A stretch of 64,000 nt of DNA from the NCBI RefSeq assembly GCF_041886205.1, contig NZ_CP169029.1; one strand, given 5' to 3'. Below, piece after piece: positions 15,990 to 47,596 of the stretch. The DNA comes from Escherichia coli. Its GTDB lineage: Bacteria > Pseudomonadota > Gammaproteobacteria > Enterobacterales > Enterobacteriaceae. Numbering within the stretch: position 1 is the first letter of the stretch; every line of letters begins with the position of its first letter. A program made the position numbers and the translations under genes. A model generated the notes under the pieces. The model was not told where the DNA came from and ran no database searches. It worked only from the letters and a program-made list of their open reading frames with translations.

Positions 15990-16316
15990 ATGACTAAAAA
16001 TACTCGTTTTTCCCCCGAAGTCCGTCAACGGGCAGTCCGTATGGTTCTGGAAAGTCAGAGCGAATATGACTCACAATGGGCGACAATTTGTTCCATTGCT
16101 CCAAAGATTGGCTGTACGCCGGAGACTCTGCGTGTCTGGGTTCGCCAGCATGAGCGGGATACCGGGGGCGGTGATGGAGGGCTCACCACCGCTGAACGTC
16201 AGCGTCTGAAAGAGCTGGAACGTGAAAATCGTGAACTGCGCCGCAGTAACGATATCCTTCGCCAGGCTTCCGCTTATTTTGCGAAGGCGGAGTTCGACCG
16301 CCTCTGGAAAAAATGA
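15990..16316 (+). CDS. IS3-family transposase OrfA (HTH)
   Basis: 108 aa [21 protein letters not shown]...; leucine-zipper-like C-terminus. Confidence 0.85.
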
Positions 16317-17203
16317 TGCCACTGCTGGATAAGCTGCGTGAGCAGTACGGGGTCGGACCGCTATGCAGCGAACTGCATATTGCCCCGTCAACGTATTACC
16401 ACTGTCAGCAACAGCGACATCATCCGGATAAACGCAGTGCCCGTGCGCAGCGCGATGACTGGCTGAAGAAAGAGATACAGCGCGTATACGATGAAAATCA
16501 CAAGGTATACGGTGTGCGTAAAGTCTGGCGTCAGTTGTTACGGGAAGGTATCAGAGTGGCCAGATGCACTGTGGCACGTCTCATGGCGGTTATGGGACTT
16601 GCCGGTGTTCTCCGGGGTAAAAAGGTCCGTACGACCATCAGCCGGAAAGCCGTTGCCGCAGGCGACCGCGTAAACCGTCAGTTCGTGGCAGAACGACCTG
16701 ACCAGCTGTGGGTGGCTGATTTTACTTACGTCAGCACATGGCGGGGCTTCGTCTATGTGGCGTTCATCATTGATGTGTTTGCCGGATACATCGTGGGGTG
16801 GCGGGTCTCATCGTCCATGGAAACGACATTCGTGCTGGATGCACTGGAGCAGGCGTTATGGGCCCGTCGACCGTCCGGCACGGTCCATCACAGTGATAAA
16901 GGTTCTCAGTATGTATCGCTGGCCTACACACAGCGGCTTAAGGAAGCCGGATTACTGGCATCAACAGGAAGTACAGGCGACTCGTATGACAACGCGATGG
17001 CGGAGAGCATCAATGGTCTTTACAAAGCGGAGGTAATACACCGTAAGAGCTGGAAAAACCGTGCAGAAGTGGAACTGGCCACACTCACGTGGGTGGACTG
17101 GTATAACAATCGACGATTGCTGGAAAGGCTGGGCCATACTCCTCCGGCAGAAGCAGAAAAAGCTTATTATGCTTCCATCGGAAACGATGATCTGGCAGCC
17201 TGA
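16313..17203 (+). CDS. IS3-family transposase OrfB (DDE integrase core)
   Basis: 296 aa with rve-type DDE domain; overlaps orfA in -1 frame. Confidence 0.85.
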
Positions 17204-28320: not shown

Positions 28321-28683
28321 GGTAATATTAAATCGGAACATTTACATCGCGGAATGTAAAATTTAAATAAAAAGGACTCTTCCATGAGCCAAAATTCCTG
28401 AAATCTTAAGGGTAAGATAAAAGGTCTTAATCAGAATGACACGTTATTATTAATAAATAAAGCTATTCTTTCATTGCTGTGTTTTTCTTTACAAAAGTAA
28501 TCCTTGCTATGGGTGGTTAATCATGCGTTAATGGTGTTCTGGTTTGTTACAAATTTATCTGAAGCAGTCATTGTTATAATTTTATTATTTGTACCTCTTG
28601 AGATTTCCTTGTTGGTTTTTCTCTCTGATATTTTTTTTCGGACCATTCTGCCCAAGGGCTAATTTCTTCAAAAGGTAATAATT

Positions 28684-28896
28684 ATGTCTAACAAAATGAC
28701 TGGTTTAGTGAAATGGTTTAACCCTGAAAAAGGTTTTGGTTTCATCACGCCGAAAGATGGCAGCAAAGATGTGTTTGTCCATTTCTCAGCAATTCAGAGC
28801 AACGATTTCAAAACATTAACTGAGAATCAGGAAGTTGAATTTGGTATTGAGAACGGACCTAAAGGTCCTGCCGCTGTTCATGTAGTGGCGCTTTGA
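28684..28896 (+). CDS. cspI: cold-shock protein (CspA family)
   Basis: 70 aa [23 protein letters not shown]...; long upstream leader typical of csp genes. Confidence 0.9.
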
Positions 28897-29167
28897 GGTA
28901 GACAATATTACAAACCATATTCACTTTAGATGCCCGTGTTGTCATGGTTCCCAGTATAGAACATCATCTTTTGATGTTTCTGACATGAATCCTTTCGGGG
29001 CAAAATGTATCTTTTGTAAATCAATGATGATTACATTTGATAATATTTCACAATACTTAAATGCCAGCCGTCTGTCGTTGGATTTAAAAAAGTGAAAATG
29101 AAGGCTCCTTCGGGAGTTTTTTTGCTTGGTATCTATTCGATGGATACTCACATACTACGGTAACATC

Positions 29168-34043: not shown

Positions 34044-34618
34044 TGGCATTCAGAATGAGTGAACAACCACAGACCATAAAAATTTATAATCTGCTGGCCG
34101 GAACTAATGAATTTATTGGTGAAGGTGACGCATATATTCCGCCTCATACAGGTCTGCCAGCAAACAGTACCGATATTGCACCGCCAGATATTCCGGCAGG
34201 CTTCGTGGCTGTTTTCAACAGTGATGAGGCATCGTGGCATCTCGTTGAAGATCATCGGGGAAAAACCGTCTATGACGTGGCTTCCGGCGACGCGTTATTT
34301 ATTTCTGAACTCGGTCCGTTACCGGAAAATGTTACCTGGTTATCGCCGGAAGGGGAGTTTCAGAAGTGGAACGGCACAGCCTGGGTGAAGGATACGGAAG
34401 CAGAAAAACTGTTCCGGATCCGGGAGGCGGAAGAAACAAAAAACAACCTGATGCAGGTAGCCAGTGAGCATATTGCGCCGCTTCAGGATGCTGCAGATCT
34501 GGAAATTGCAACGGAGGAAGAAATCTCGTTGCTGGAAGCATGGAAAAAGTATCGGGTATTGCTGAACCGTGTTGATACGTCAACTGCACAGGATATTGAA
34601 TGGCCAGCACTGCCGTAG
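34043..34618 (+). CDS. tail fibre assembly protein Tfa
   Basis: 191 aa; start overlaps the stf stop; typical Tfa N-terminus ([21 protein letters not shown]). Confidence 0.8.
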
Positions 34619-45077: not shown

Positions 45078-45968
45078 ATGATCAAGAAGACAACGGAAAT
45101 TGATGCCATCTTGTTAAATCTCAATAAGGCTATCGATGCCCACTACCAGTGGCTGGTGAGTATGTTTCACAGCGTGGTCGCGAGAGATGCCAGTAAGCCA
45201 GAAATAACGGATAACCATTCTTATGGACTGTGCCAGTTTGGTCGGTGGATTGATCATCTGGGGCCACTCGATAACGATGAATTACCTTACGTTCGGCTAA
45301 TGGATTCTGCCCATCAACATATGCATAACTGTGGTCGGGAATTAATGCTGGCTATTGTTGAAAATCACTGGCAGGACGCGCATTTCGACGCCTTTCAGGA
45401 GGGGTTGCTTTCTTTTACTGCGGCATTAACCGATTACAAAATTTATTTGCTGACGATCCGTAGCAATATGGATGTTTTGACGGGATTGCCGGGGCGTCGG
45501 GTTCTTGATGAATCCTTTGATCATCAGTTACGCAACGCTGAGCCTCTGAATCTTTATTTAATGTTGTTGGATATTGACCGATTTAAATTGGTTAATGATA
45601 CCTACGGGCATTTAATCGGCGATGTAGTATTACGCACCCTGGCAACTTACTTAGCCAGTTGGACGCGTGATTACGAAACGGTTTATCGCTACGGGGGCGA
45701 AGAATTTATCATTATTGTCAAAGCGGCTAATGATGAAGAAGCATGTCGTGCAGGTGTCAGAATTTGCCAGTTAGTCGATAACCATGCCATCACGCATTCT
45801 GAAGGGCATATCAACATTACCGTGACAGCAGGTGTCAGTCGCGCATTTCCTGAAGAGCCTCTGGATGTGGTCATTGGAAGAGCAGACCGGGCAATGTATG
45901 AGGGTAAGCAAACCGGAAGAAATCGCTGCATGTTTATTGATGAACAAAATGTGATTAACCGAGTTTAA
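45078..45968 (+). CDS. dgcZ: zinc-sensing diguanylate cyclase
   Basis: 296 aa; N-terminal zinc-binding domain; GGDEF domain with RYGGEEF; RBS AAGGAG. Confidence 0.85.
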   Translation: MIKKTTEIDAILLNLNKAIDAHYQWLVSMFHSVVARDASKPEITDNHSYGLCQFGRWIDHLGPLDNDELPYVRLMDSAHQHMHNCGRELMLAIVENHWQDAHFDAFQEGLLSFTAALTDYKIYLLTIRSNMDVLTGLPGRRVLDESFDHQLRNAEPLNLYLMLLDIDRFKLVNDTYGHLIGDVVLRTLATYLASWTRDYETVYRYGGEEFIIIVKAANDEEACRAGVRICQLVDNHAITHSEGHINITVTAGVSRAFPEEPLDVVIGRADRAMYEGKQTGRNRCMFIDEQNVINRV

Positions 45969-45978
45969 GCTCCGTTTA
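45962..45978 (+). promoter_or_regulatory. PhoP box-like direct repeat (AGTTTA-N5-CGTTTA)
   Basis: Two hexamers matching the (T/G)GTTTA consensus with 5-nt spacer, overlapping the dgcZ stop, about 30-40 bp upstream of the proposed mgrR start. Confidence 0.45.
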
Positions 45979-46007
45979 ACATTCATTGAGAAAACTGATG
46001 CTACTGT

Positions 46008-46111
46008 GTCAACGATCCGTTATCAGTGCAGGAAAATGCCTGTTAGCGTAAAAGCAAAACACAAATCTATCCATGCAAGCATTCACCGCCGGTTTACTGG
46101 CGGTTTTTTTT
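46008..46111 (+). ncRNA. mgrR: MgrR-like small RNA; 5' end approximate
   Basis: About 100-nt unit between the PhoP-like box and a strong terminator (stem GCCGG/CCGGC then T8 at 46085-46111); K-12 context recalled from memory. Confidence 0.5.
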
Positions 46112-46186
46112 CGCCGTCATAAAAATCAGGCCCCTTGTACACAACTGTAACAAGGGGCCGGTTAGGTGAGGGATTATCTCCGTTCA

Positions 46187-46282
46187 TTAGTCATCCCATT
46201 TGTGGCTGAAATACGCGGCCAGAAAACCAGAAAATAAAATTATTCCCAGTACGGCCATAAAAACATTCATATTACCCAGCAT
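46187..46282 (-). CDS. mgtS: small membrane protein MgtS (YneM), 31 aa
   Basis: Below the track's 60-aa cutoff; translation MLGNMNVFMAVLGIILFSGFLAAYFSHKWDD; followed on the minus strand by a hairpin terminator. Confidence 0.7.
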   Translation of the reverse strand: MLGNMNVFMAVLGIILFSGFLAAYFSHKWDD

Positions 46283-46408
46283 TATTTGCCTCCGTTTATG
46301 GTGTGGTGTGTTTCCTCGCTTACCTTAATTTTCATCTCAATGAGAAAGATATTAGCAGAGGTAACCTAAACGAAGGCTGAATTAAATTTTTATTGTGTTC
46401 GACTTAAA

Positions 46409-47596
46409 TCAACAAAGCGCGGGCTGCCCCCACGGTTTTGCACGAATCCCTTTTAACATCAGCACCCACGCAGCAATGATCACCAACGCTAAGATGATAA
46501 ACAGCGAGGAAGGCGGCAGGCTGGTTAGCACTACGCCACTCACTAATGGGTTAATTGCAGCACCAAGCCAGCCTAAAGACTGGGCGGAAAAATAGCTGGC
46601 TTTCATTCCTGGCGGCGCAATATGGTCAATCAACATATACTCGCCCGGCGCATAAATGATTTCACCGACAGTAAATACCGCAGCTGACATACCCCACAAT
46701 AGCAGGCTGTTGCCGGAAAAAATAAAACCAACCAGACCGATGACGAAACAGAGGGTGCCTGCTGTCATCAGCGCGCGGATGTTAACCGGGTTAAGGCGGC
46801 GGCCCACGGAATATTGCAACGTAACTACCATGGCAGCATTAACCGGAAGAACAACCGCGACCACCTTTTCGGCAAAATCCCCATCAGCAATCACCATCAC
46901 ATATTGTGAAATGCATGAAGCAAATGCGCCGCTAACAAAGGAAGCCAGAAAACCAGAGCAGGTAAACCACAACAGTGCTTTATCTTGTAATAAAACTTTC
47001 GGCGACCAGACACTGCCTGTTTCCGTGGCGATGATTTTCTCGCTGCGCTTTACCCAAATTTGAATGAAAAGCATGGGAAACGCGGAACAGATAGCTGCCA
47101 GCCAAAAGGGCAGATTGATGCTCTGCATCACCAACAGCGTGCCGAGCGGCGGACCGATGGTCCAGCCAATGTTTAGCATGGTGTAGTTGATTGAGAAGAT
47201 TTTCGTTTTGCTGGTGGACGAAAGATTGTCGGCAAACCAGGCTTTCAACACGGTAGCAAAAACGGAATAGGCGCAGTTAATAAGGGCAAAAAAGAGCACC
47301 ACCAGCGTCACGTTATTCACTAAAGGAATGGCAATAAAACCGCTGGCGAAGGCGGTAATTGCCAGTAACATATAGCGTTTCTTGTCGAACTTATCCGCCA
47401 GGATACCAAAACCGAGGCTAAAAACGACGCCAATAGTGAGCGCAATTGTCATCGCATAACCGATTAGATCGACACTCAGGCTGTACTGGCGACTCAAGTA
47501 AATGGTCATAAATGGCAGCGTAGCGCCGCGTCCGATGGTTAATAACAACGACGAGGCAAGAAGGGCGCTGGTAGAGCGTCGTAGGGATAAGTTCAT
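46409..47596 (-). CDS. ydeE: MFS transporter
   Basis: 395 aa, 12-TM MFS architecture. Confidence 0.8.
   Translation of the reverse strand: MNLSLRRSTSALLASSLLLTIGRGATLPFMTIYLSRQYSLSVDLIGYAMTIALTIGVVFSLGFGILADKFDKKRYMLLAITAFASGFIAIPLVNNVTLVVLFFALINCAYSVFATVLKAWFADNLSSTSKTKIFSINYTMLNIGWTIGPPLGTLLVMQSINLPFWLAAICSAFPMLFIQIWVKRSEKIIATETGSVWSPKVLLQDKALLWFTCSGFLASFVSGAFASCISQYVMVIADGDFAEKVVAVVLPVNAAMVVTLQYSVGRRLNPVNIRALMTAGTLCFVIGLVGFIFSGNSLLLWGMSAAVFTVGEIIYAPGEYMLIDHIAPPGMKASYFSAQSLGWLGAAINPLVSGVVLTSLPPSSLFIILALVIIAAWVLMLKGIRAKPWGQPALC

What the first reader, a model, noticed from the sequence alone, without database searches (positions are those of the whole stretch)
45962..46282. PhoP-box / MgrR sRNA / MgtS small-protein locus packed into the dgcZ-ydeE gap
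A PhoP-like direct repeat (AGTTTA-N5-CGTTTA) overlaps the dgcZ stop. About 100 nt downstream is a strong terminator, delimiting an MgrR-sized sRNA. On the other strand a 31-aa single-TM ORF (MgtS) lies below the track's cutoff and has its own terminator. This shows how small features are missed by a 60-aa ORF threshold.
Basis: partly seen in the sequence, partly recalled or inferred. Interest (0 to 1): 0.3.

Follow-up and report, generated by a model that had tools for sequence, protein, structure and literature searches.

The report
Known E. coli mgrR–mgtS magnesium-stress locus

Summary
Window 46014-46111 (+) is mgrR (97/98 nt identical to K-12 b4698; Rfam STnc560, 281.9 bits). Window 46187-46282 (-) is mgtS (100% identical; NCBIfam and Pfam equivalog hits). 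The GTTTA-N6-GTTTA repeat at 45962-45978 does overlap the dgcZ stop codon, and the terminator at 46085-46104 plus U-run is real: published Term-seq puts a very strong 3' end at 46104. The locus is in 5416 of 5426 complete E. coli genomes, and the pair is conserved in Citrobacter and Salmonella.

- mgtT (34 aa, 46083-46187, -), whose start overlaps the mgtS stop and whose last 29 nt are antisense to the MgrR terminator.
- CDS58 (17 aa, 46282-46335, -), a published upstream frame.
- A second, better-placed PhoP-type box in front of mgtS (46367-46383, -).

The measured mRNA end (46124) falls at codon 22 of 34, so full-length MgtT needs terminator read-through. MgtT shows no protein-level conservation outside Escherichia. 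Which half-sites form the mgrR PhoP box remains unresolved.

The parts
45962..45978 (+). PhoP-like direct repeat AGTTTA-AGCTC-CGTTTA (half-sites A 45962-45967 and B 45973-45978). Half-site A overlaps the dgcZ stop codon TAA (45966-45968). The repeat spans -52 to -36 relative to the MgrR 5' end.
   Evidence: Sequence. Strict core found once against 0.11 expected. Half-site B (C/T)GTTTA is invariant in 20/20 loci; half-site A scores a mean 3.7/6 with only TT invariant.
45984..45989 (+). Third 11-bp-phased element CATTGA (half-site C). Nearly invariant across genera but a poor match to the PhoP half-site. With half-site B it would form a box ending 12 bp from the -10 hexamer.
   Evidence: CATTG in 19/20 loci; 2-4 of 6 matches to (T/G)GTTTA.
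45999..46007 (+). Conserved extended -10 element TGcTACTGT (TGnTAnnnT) of the mgrR promoter; the hexamer 46002-46007 ends 7 nt before the 5' end.
   Evidence: Alignment of 20 loci; position relative to the K-12 annotated 5' end.
46014..46111 (+). mgrR, a 98-nt Hfq-dependent small RNA. It comprises a 5' stem-loop (46018-46048), a single-stranded A-rich centre with the published pairing region U55-A68 (46068-46081), a terminator stem (46085-46104) and a U-tail to 46111.
   Evidence: K-12 annotation b4698 mapped by alignment, 1 difference (46017 C vs T). Rfam RF01407, 281.9 bits. Fold -25.9 kcal/mol, z = -2.9. 94% of cells paired across 16 sequences. Term-seq 3' end at 46104. Pairing region from PMC6239178.
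46121..46161 (-). Intrinsic terminator of the mgtS transcript: stem 46159-46150 / 46138-46129 with an upper stem and GUUG loop, then T5 at 46125-46121. The measured 3' end is at 46124.
   Evidence: Fold -22.6 kcal/mol, z = -3.6. 13 pairs, 3 with compensatory changes, and a T-run in all genera. Term-seq 3' end at K-12 1622804 (+) = window 46124.
46083..46187 (-). mgtT, a 34-aa frame (MNGDNPSPNRPLVTVVYKGPDFYDGEKKPPVNRR). Its ATG overlaps the mgtS stop by 1 nt (TAATG). It runs through the mgtS terminator, and its last 29 nt are antisense to the MgrR terminator.
   Evidence: RefSeq annotation; 100% identical to b4775; Pfam PF23498, 96.3 bits; translation evidence in 10.1101/511675, PMC11429745 and PMC12350097. 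Frame length varies from 9 to 66 codons in other genera.
46187..46282 (-). mgtS (yneM), a 31-aa single-helix inner-membrane protein.
   Evidence: Variable alignment columns by codon position 8/4/22, a clear signature of protein-level selection.
46282..46335 (-). CDS58, a 17-aa upstream frame (MKIKVSEETHHTINGGK) whose TAA overlaps the mgtS ATG by 1 nt.
   Evidence: Translation identical to CDS58 in PMC12350097 supplementary file 5. The start codon is absent in E. albertii, E. whittamii and Citrobacter.
46349..46383 (-). mgtS promoter: PhoP-type box AATTCA-GCCTT-CGTTTA (46383-46367), a 12-nt spacer, and the -10 hexamer TAATAT (46354-46349).
   Evidence: The pattern TTCA-N5-NGNTTA-N12-(-10-like hexamer) was found in all 17 loci that carry mgtS. 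The hexamer is TAnTAT in 15 of them and CAGGAT or CATGAT in L016 and L020. PhoP dependence of a yneM-lacZ fusion is reported in PMC3536696 and PMC11429745.

Best explanation

On the + strand, a promoter built from an invariant CGTTTA PhoP half-site and an extended -10 fires at 46014. It makes the 98-nt sRNA MgrR, which ends at the 46085-46111 terminator. MgrR binds Hfq through its A-rich centre and U-tail, and it pairs through nt 55-68 with mRNAs such as eptB, ygdQ and pitA to repress them.

On the - strand, a canonical PhoP promoter (box, 12 bp, -10) drives a short mRNA carrying three end-to-start overlapping small frames: CDS58, mgtS and mgtT. MgtS is the functional product. It is a single-helix membrane protein that protects the Mg2+ importer MgtA from degradation and acts on the phosphate transporter PitA. 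Most of this mRNA ends at the 46129-46159 hairpin and T-run (measured end 46124), 12 nt short of the MgrR 3' end, so the two transcripts normally do not overlap.

Shown here: the identities, coordinates, structures and conservation. Taken from the literature: PhoP dependence, targets, protein function and transcript ends. Inferred: promoter element assignment, and that MgtT and CDS58 are lineage-specific translated frames without a conserved protein function.
For: - Identity: Rfam 281.9 bits. The K-12 annotation lists mgrR, mgtS and mgtT, and exact or near-exact matches place them in the window. NCBIfam and Pfam hits are above their cut-offs.
- Ubiquity: 5416 of 5426 complete E. coli genomes.
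- Conservation of the pair in Escherichia, Citrobacter and Salmonella with variable flanks.
- Structures: MgrR fold z = -2.9 and 94% paired. The mgtS terminator has z = -3.6 and 3 compensatory pairs.
- Selection: mgtS variable sites fall at codon positions 1/2/3 as 8/4/22.
- Promoters: invariant half-sites and -10 elements.
- Literature:
  - PhoP-activated mgrR and yneM fusions (PMC3536696).
  - A PhoQP-dependent mgtS-mgtT operon, with MgtS in the membrane and MgtT not (PMC11429745).
  - MgrR is 98 nt, Hfq class II, with pairing region U55-A68 (PMC6239178).
  - Term-seq ends at 46104 and 46124 (PMC7815308).
  - MgrR is PhoP-activated and targets pitA in Salmonella (PMC12721325).
Against: - Nothing contradicts the identification.
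- The PhoP repeat alone is not statistically compelling in 64 kb.
- Its upstream half-site is poorly conserved, and it sits one helical turn further from the -10 than at mgtS.
- The primary papers (Moon & Gottesman 2009; Wang 2017; Yin 2019) were not held, so their data are cited second-hand.
- The Term-seq MgrR end (46104, the first U) is 7 nt short of the annotated end (46111). I did not resolve this.
- The invariance of the MgrR core in my loci follows from the search design, because the pattern required it.
Confidence: 0.96

Rival explanations
1. The functional PhoP box of mgrR is not the reader's pair (A+B, 45962-45978). It is the invariant CGTTTA plus the downstream conserved CATTGA (B+C, 45973-45989), or PhoP occupies all three 11-bp-phased half-sites.
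For: B+C ends exactly 12 bp before the -10 hexamer. That is the same layout as the mgtS promoter in all 17 loci. CATTG is present in 19/20 loci, whereas half-site A keeps only TT and is shifted by 1 nt in most genera.
Against: CATTGA matches the (T/G)GTTTA consensus at only 2-4 of 6 positions, against 5 of 6 for half-site A in E. coli. [quoted passage not shown] Conservation of CATTG could serve another factor.
Confidence: 0.3
2. MgtT is a functional, selected small protein, not an incidental frame.
For: It is translated according to Ribo-RET, an SPA-tag western blot and PIRT-Seq. It is induced by low Mg2+ through PhoQP. It has a Pfam family, PF23498. Its start codon and first ~13 codons are conserved across genera.
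Against: - Frame length ranges from 9 to 66 codons outside Escherichia.
- Within Escherichia, variable sites fall at codon positions 1/2/3 as 9/5/2, the reverse of a coding signature.
- The conserved N-terminal DNA includes the terminator's left arm (its distal codons).
- The ATG arises automatically from the tandem stops TAATGA or TGATGA.
- Neither deletion nor overexpression gives a phenotype (PMC11429745).
- The measured mRNA end lies at codon 22.
Confidence: 0.15
3. The features are chance resemblances: a random GTTTA repeat, a random hairpin and a random short hydrophobic ORF.
For: The loose PhoP pattern is at chance level. Short ORFs are abundant: 58 ORFs of at least 20 aa lie in 3.5 kb.
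Against: Rfam E = 1.8e-64, NCBIfam E = 5.8e-23, near-identity to curated K-12 genes, cross-genus conservation with a wobble-position pattern, and measured transcript ends.
Confidence: 0.01

Closest known systems
MgrR sRNA of E. coli K-12 (b4698; Rfam RF01407 'STnc560', the Salmonella name)
   Same: 97 of 98 nt identical, with the same 5' and 3' ends by alignment, the same terminator and U8 tail, an identical pairing region U55-A68, and the same neighbours.
   Different: One substitution at nt 4 (C here, U in K-12), outside the predicted stem. Both variants occur among Citrobacter. The Rfam model (214 nt, window 45980-46193) is much wider than the RNA. It includes 34 nt of promoter and 82 nt downstream, so the second 'helix' of that model is really the mgtS terminator read on the opposite strand.
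MgtS (YneM), b4599; NCBIfam NF033842; Pfam PF22865
   Same: 100% identical protein and DNA, with the same convergent position relative to mgrR.
   Different: None found.
MgtT, b4775; Pfam PF23498 (Weaver et al. 2019)
   Same: 100% identical, with the same 1-nt stop/start overlap with mgtS and the same 29-nt antisense overlap with mgrR.
   Different: None in this window. Across genera the frame is not maintained.
CDS58 of the PIRT-Seq study (PMC12350097)
   Same: Identical 54-nt frame and peptide.
   Different: Not in RefSeq annotation. Restricted to E. coli-like sequences.
Canonical PhoP-activated promoters (direct repeat (T/G)GTTTA-N5-(T/G)GTTTA in place of the -35 element)
   Same: The mgtS promoter has the box, a 12-bp spacer and a -10 hexamer. 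The mgrR promoter has a 10/12 match to the repeat.
   Different: Only one half-site is invariant.

Membership tests
MgrR / Rfam RF01407 (STnc560) | Covariance-model score at or above the curated gathering score | tested here: met
   281.9 bits against 55, E = 1.8e-64, full model 1-214.
MgrR / Rfam RF01407 (STnc560) | Full-length sequence identity to the curated K-12 gene b4698, with the same ends | tested here: met
   97/98 nt, no indels, window 46014-46111.
MgrR / Rfam RF01407 (STnc560) | Rho-independent terminator with a long U-tail (Hfq proximal-face site) and a single-stranded A-rich centre containing the pairing region | tested here: met
   8-bp stem plus U8. Nt 36-71 are mostly unpaired in the fold. 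The U55-A68 sequence is identical to K-12. Hfq binding itself was not tested.
MgrR / Rfam RF01407 (STnc560) | A transcript that really ends at the terminator | tested here: met
   Published K-12 Term-seq 3' end at 1622824 (-) = window 46104, score 2.4e6. The data are for K-12, not this strain.
MgrR / Rfam RF01407 (STnc560) | PhoQ-PhoP-dependent transcription | not testable with these tools
   Sequence is consistent with it. Dependence is reported for K-12 and Salmonella (PMC3536696; PMC12721325).
MgtS (NF033842 / PF22865) | Equivalog HMM score above the curated cut-off over the full 31 residues | tested here: met
   NCBIfam 80.6 bits against 35; Pfam 88.2 bits against 27.
MgtS (NF033842 / PF22865) | A single hydrophobic helix and protein-level purifying selection | tested here: met
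   19-residue window with mean KD 2.34. Variable sites by codon position 8/4/22.
MgtS (NF033842 / PF22865) | Stabilises MgtA and modulates PitA | not testable with these tools
   Stated in PMC11429745, citing Wang 2017 and Yin 2019.
MgtT (PF23498) | HMM score above the cut-off and identity to b4775 | tested here: met
   96.3 bits against 27; 100% identity. NCBIfam has no model for it.
MgtT (PF23498) | Reading frame maintained and under protein-level selection in related genera | tested here: not met
   Frame length is 9, 14, 30, 34, 42, 45, 60 or 66 codons. Variable sites by codon position are 9/5/2 in Escherichia (small sample of 4 sequences).
PhoP box | Direct repeat (T/G)GTTTA-N5-(T/G)GTTTA near the -35 position | tested here: inconclusive
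   - mgrR: 10/12 match, but 23 bp from the -10; an alternative pair lies at 12 bp.
- mgtS: 8/12 match here (9-11/12 in most other genera) at the canonical 12 bp.
- Chance level: 1 found against 0.11 expected, p about 0.08.
PhoP box | PhoP binding | not testable with these tools
   Needs a footprint or ChIP experiment.

The most novel reading that the evidence does not exclude
Translation of mgtT may matter in cis rather than through its peptide. The frame starts on the tandem stop of mgtS and, in every genus examined, reaches the 5' arm of the mgtS terminator or stops just short of it (within a ribosome footprint). A ribosome coupled from mgtS could therefore mask the hairpin and let RNA polymerase read through into the antisense of mgrR. 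Transcripts that do terminate at 46124 leave mgtT without a stop codon and would need ribosome rescue. That would link mgtS translation rate to an anti-MgrR transcript, or to convergent-transcription interference, at a locus whose two products act on the same target, PitA.
Probability: 0.07. Interest if true: 0.45.

Novelty: already known. Interest (0 to 1): 0.08.

Why it matters
As a discovery it does not matter much. mgrR, mgtS and mgtT are curated K-12 genes with a dedicated literature, and PGAP already annotates mgtS and mgtT in the RefSeq assemblies checked (mgrR is annotated in K-12).

Its value is as a positive control for the scan. A reader working from raw sequence correctly recognised an sRNA, its promoter motif and a 31-aa gene, all below the ORF cut-off.

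The follow-up adds three small cautions:
- The Rfam STnc560 model spans two genes on opposite strands.
- The annotated mgtT frame extends 39 nt beyond the measured end of its own mRNA and shows no protein-level conservation.
- The precise PhoP half-sites at mgrR are not obvious from conservation.

Tried and rejected
- I tried to read the primary papers (Moon & Gottesman 2009, PMC2841474; Wang 2017, PMC5465934; Yin 2019, PMC6351178). None is held, so the published PhoP box and 5' RACE end could not be checked directly.
- No paper in the library holds both 'STnc560' and 'MgrR'. The equivalence rests on coordinates.
- The loose PhoP pattern search was uninformative, at chance level.
- The built-in promoter scan found neither promoter, as expected for activator-dependent promoters without a -35 element. 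The terminator scan missed the mgtS terminator because of its bulged stem.
- Covariation in MgrR is weak: 2 pairs with double changes, and 149 of 500 shuffles do as well. The relatives are too close, so the structure is supported by pairing percentage and published probing rather than by covariation.
- I considered CATTGAGA as a -35 element (TTGAGA) and rejected it, because it lies only 10 bp from the conserved -10.
- I did not use the large protein or structure searches. They were not needed for a locus identical to K-12.

Full report
**What is in the sequence.**
The interval between dgcZ and ydeE is 440 nt. dgcZ is 45078-45968 (+) with stop TAA at 45966-45968. ydeE is 46409-47596 (-). NCBIfam equivalogs support both, at 521.9 and 798.6 bits.
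- The direct repeat AGTTTA-AGCTC-CGTTTA at 45962-45978 has its first half-site over the dgcZ stop.
- A G+C-rich 8-bp hairpin at 46085-46104 is followed by eight T.
- A 31-aa ORF lies on the minus strand at 46187-46282.
- A second, longer hairpin at 46129-46159 has its T-run on the minus strand.

**Identity.**
- Rfam's STnc560 model (RF01407, 'Hfq binding RNA') matches 45980-46193 (+) at 281.9 bits, against a gathering score of 55.
- A 521-nt query around the gap hits 5416 of 5426 complete E. coli genomes, 4890 of them at 99% identity or more. RefSeq annotates dgcZ, mgtT, mgtS and ydeE under it (detail).
- K-12 MG1655 additionally annotates the ncRNA mgrR (b4698, 98 nt), mgtS (b4599) and mgtT (b4775).
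- Mapping K-12 onto the window gives mgrR = 46014-46111 (+) with one difference (46017, MgrR nt 4, C instead of U). It gives mgtS = 46187-46282 (-) and mgtT = 46083-46187 (-), both 100% identical. The 541-nt stretch compared (45918-46458, the gap plus 50 nt on each side) differs from K-12 at five positions only.
- MgtS hits NCBIfam NF033842 (80.6 bits, cut-off 35) and Pfam PF22865 (88.2 bits).
- MgtT hits Pfam PF23498 (96.3 bits) and has no NCBIfam model.

**Is the PhoP box more than chance?**
On its own, barely. With two mismatches allowed, the consensus gives 22 matches against 19.2 expected. The exact GTTTA-N6-GTTTA core occurs once against 0.11 expected, and 8 of 100 shuffles also have one. 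The support comes from context.

I used one genome-collection scan with a 30-nt MgrR core. It returned 20 loci from Escherichia (albertii, whittamii, a divergent 'coli'), about 14 Citrobacter species, Salmonella enterica subsp. arizonae and two MAGs. The core is therefore conserved by construction, but the flanks are not. The alignment and the half-site table show the following:
- The promoter-proximal half-site (C/T)GTTTA (45973-45978) is invariant in 20/20 loci.
- A TGnTAnnnT extended -10 element (45999-46007) is conserved and ends 7 nt before the annotated 5' end.
- A third element, CATTG(A/G) at 45984-45989, also 11 bp in phase, is almost invariant but matches the consensus poorly (2-4 of 6).

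The pair formed by the invariant half-site and CATTGA ends 12 bp from it. The original paper was not available.

**A second PhoP promoter.**
On the minus strand upstream of mgtS lies AATTCA-GCCTT-CGTTTA (46383-46367), then 12 nt, then TAATAT (46354-46349). The pattern TTCA-N5-NGNTTA-N12 followed by a -10-like hexamer is present in all 17 loci that carry mgtS. The hexamer is TAnTAT in 15 of them and CAGGAT or CATGAT in L016 and L020. Published lacZ fusions show that both mgrR and yneM (= mgtS) are PhoP-activated (PMC3536696). RNA-seq and reporters show PhoQ-dependent induction of mgtS-mgtT in low Mg2+ (PMC11429745).

**MgrR itself.**
- The 98-nt sequence folds into a 5' stem-loop (nt 5-35), an open centre and the terminator. 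The energy is -25.9 kcal/mol with z = -2.9.
- Across 16 distinct sequences, 94% of cells in this structure are standard pairs, against 25-49% when partners are slid. Covariation is weak because the relatives are close.
- Published probing agrees with this fold. It places the A-rich Hfq distal-face motif and the pairing region U55-A68 (window 46068-46081) in the single-stranded centre. MgrR is a class II Hfq sRNA that represses eptB and ygdQ (PMC6239178). pitA is a further target (PMC12721325; title of Yin 2019).

**Transcript ends.**
K-12 Term-seq (PMC7815308, supplementary file 1) lists two 3' ends here:
- One at 1622824 (-), score 2,434,090, which is window 46104 (conversion: K-12 coordinate = 1668928 minus window coordinate).
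- One at 1622804 (+), score 2,596, which is window 46124, the second T of the T5 run after the second hairpin.

Both terminators therefore work in vivo, and the two convergent transcripts stop 12 nt apart by annotation. The MgrR end at the first U, rather than the eighth, is a discrepancy I did not resolve.

**The mgtS terminator.**
The hairpin is real and conserved: -22.6 kcal/mol, z = -3.6; 13 pairs, three with compensatory changes; a T-run in every genus. Citrobacter carries a ~35-nt insertion between the two terminators.

- *mgtT.* It starts at the A of the mgtS stop (TAATG) and runs 34 codons to 46083. It therefore contains the whole mgtS terminator and ends 29 nt inside the complement of the MgrR terminator. 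It was found by Ribo-RET and tag western blot (10.1101/511675). It is PhoQP-induced, not membrane-associated and without a deletion or overexpression phenotype (PMC11429745). PIRT-Seq detected it again (PMC12350097).
- *CDS58.* The PIRT-Seq study also reports CDS58. I located it at 46335-46282 (-), a 17-aa frame whose TAA overlaps the mgtS ATG in the same TAATG manner.
- *Conservation.* MgtS is nearly invariant, and its variable sites sit at codon positions 1/2/3 as 8/4/22. The mgtT frame keeps its ATG and about 13 codons, then runs for 9, 14, 30, 34, 42, 45, 60 or 66 codons depending on the species. Within Escherichia its variable sites are distributed 9/5/2. Those conserved codons include the DNA of the terminator's left arm, and the ATG is generated by the tandem stops TAATGA or TGATGA. 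CDS58 has no start codon in E. albertii, E. whittamii or Citrobacter.
- *Inference.* Both frames are probably translated but are not conserved proteins.
- *Read-through.* The measured mRNA end (46124) is at codon 22 of mgtT. Full-length MgtT therefore requires read-through of the terminator, and terminated transcripts lack a stop codon in that frame.

**Context across genera.**
A dgcZ-like gene precedes mgrR in Escherichia and most Citrobacter, but its stop lies 85 to 332 nt before the MgrR core. In S. arizonae the upstream gene is ydeI, and in C. amalonaticus it is dcp, with no mgtS downstream. The conserved unit is therefore the mgrR-mgtS pair. The overlap of the PhoP repeat with the dgcZ stop is specific to E. 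coli and E. whittamii.

**Verdict.**
Interest is low. The only mildly open points are which half-sites PhoP uses at mgrR, and whether translation of mgtT across the terminator has a cis role.

Noticed in passing
window 46083-46187 (-), with the measured 3' end at 46124: The published Term-seq 3' end of the mgtS mRNA falls at codon 22 of the 34-codon annotated mgtT frame. Terminated transcripts therefore have no stop codon for mgtT, and the full-length protein needs terminator read-through into the antisense of mgrR.
   Followed up: partly
window 46282-46335 (-): The 17-aa frame MKIKVSEETHHTINGGK is identical to 'CDS58' of the PIRT-Seq study. Its stop overlaps the mgtS start by one base. It begins only ~6-8 nt after the position where the -10 element predicts the mgtS transcription start, and it is not conserved outside E. 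coli-like sequences.
   Followed up: partly
window 45980-46193 (+): The Rfam STnc560 model is 214 nt, more than twice the 98-nt RNA. It covers promoter DNA, MgrR, the mgtS terminator and all of mgtT on the other strand, so the model's third helix belongs to the opposite-strand gene.
   Followed up: yes
window 45969-46111 (+): No terminator-like site lies between the dgcZ stop and the MgrR terminator. dgcZ transcripts probably end at the MgrR terminator and carry the MgrR sequence as their 3' UTR, an arrangement like 3'-UTR sRNAs with their own promoter.
   Followed up: no
window 46104 versus 46111 (+): The Term-seq MgrR 3' end is at the first U after the stem, 7 nt short of the annotated U8 end that Hfq binding is thought to need. 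This is unexplained; trimming or method bias are possible causes.
   Followed up: no
window 46408-46434 (-): A terminator-like hairpin and T-rich tail overlap the last codons and stop of ydeE, about 25 nt upstream of the mgtS PhoP box. ydeE read-through could therefore feed into mgtS.
   Followed up: no
window 46300-46330 (-); loci L003-L022: A block in the mgtS 5' UTR (TTAAGGTAAGnGAGGAAAC) is highly conserved between Escherichia and Citrobacter, although the CDS58 frame that covers it is not. It is possibly a regulatory RNA element.
   Followed up: no
L006 (SMXE01000224.1, 'Caldithrix sp.' MAG) and L018 ('Raoultella' MAG): The Caldithrix MAG contig carries an mgrR-mgtS-mgtT stretch whose MgtS and MgtT products are identical to E. 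coli. This is almost certainly contamination or mis-binning. The 'Raoultella' MAG locus looks like Citrobacter braakii.
   Followed up: no
L012 (Citrobacter amalonaticus): MgrR is present with its promoter and terminator, but there is no mgtS within about 700 nt downstream, and dcp rather than dgcZ lies upstream. The pair is split or rearranged in this species.
   Followed up: no
window 16271-16387, 28538-28923, 34386-34584 (+): Other Rfam hits in the window are an ALIL pseudoknot (IS3-type frameshift element), a cspA-type thermoregulator leader and IS009. These suggest insertion-sequence and prophage-like DNA elsewhere in the window.
   Followed up: no
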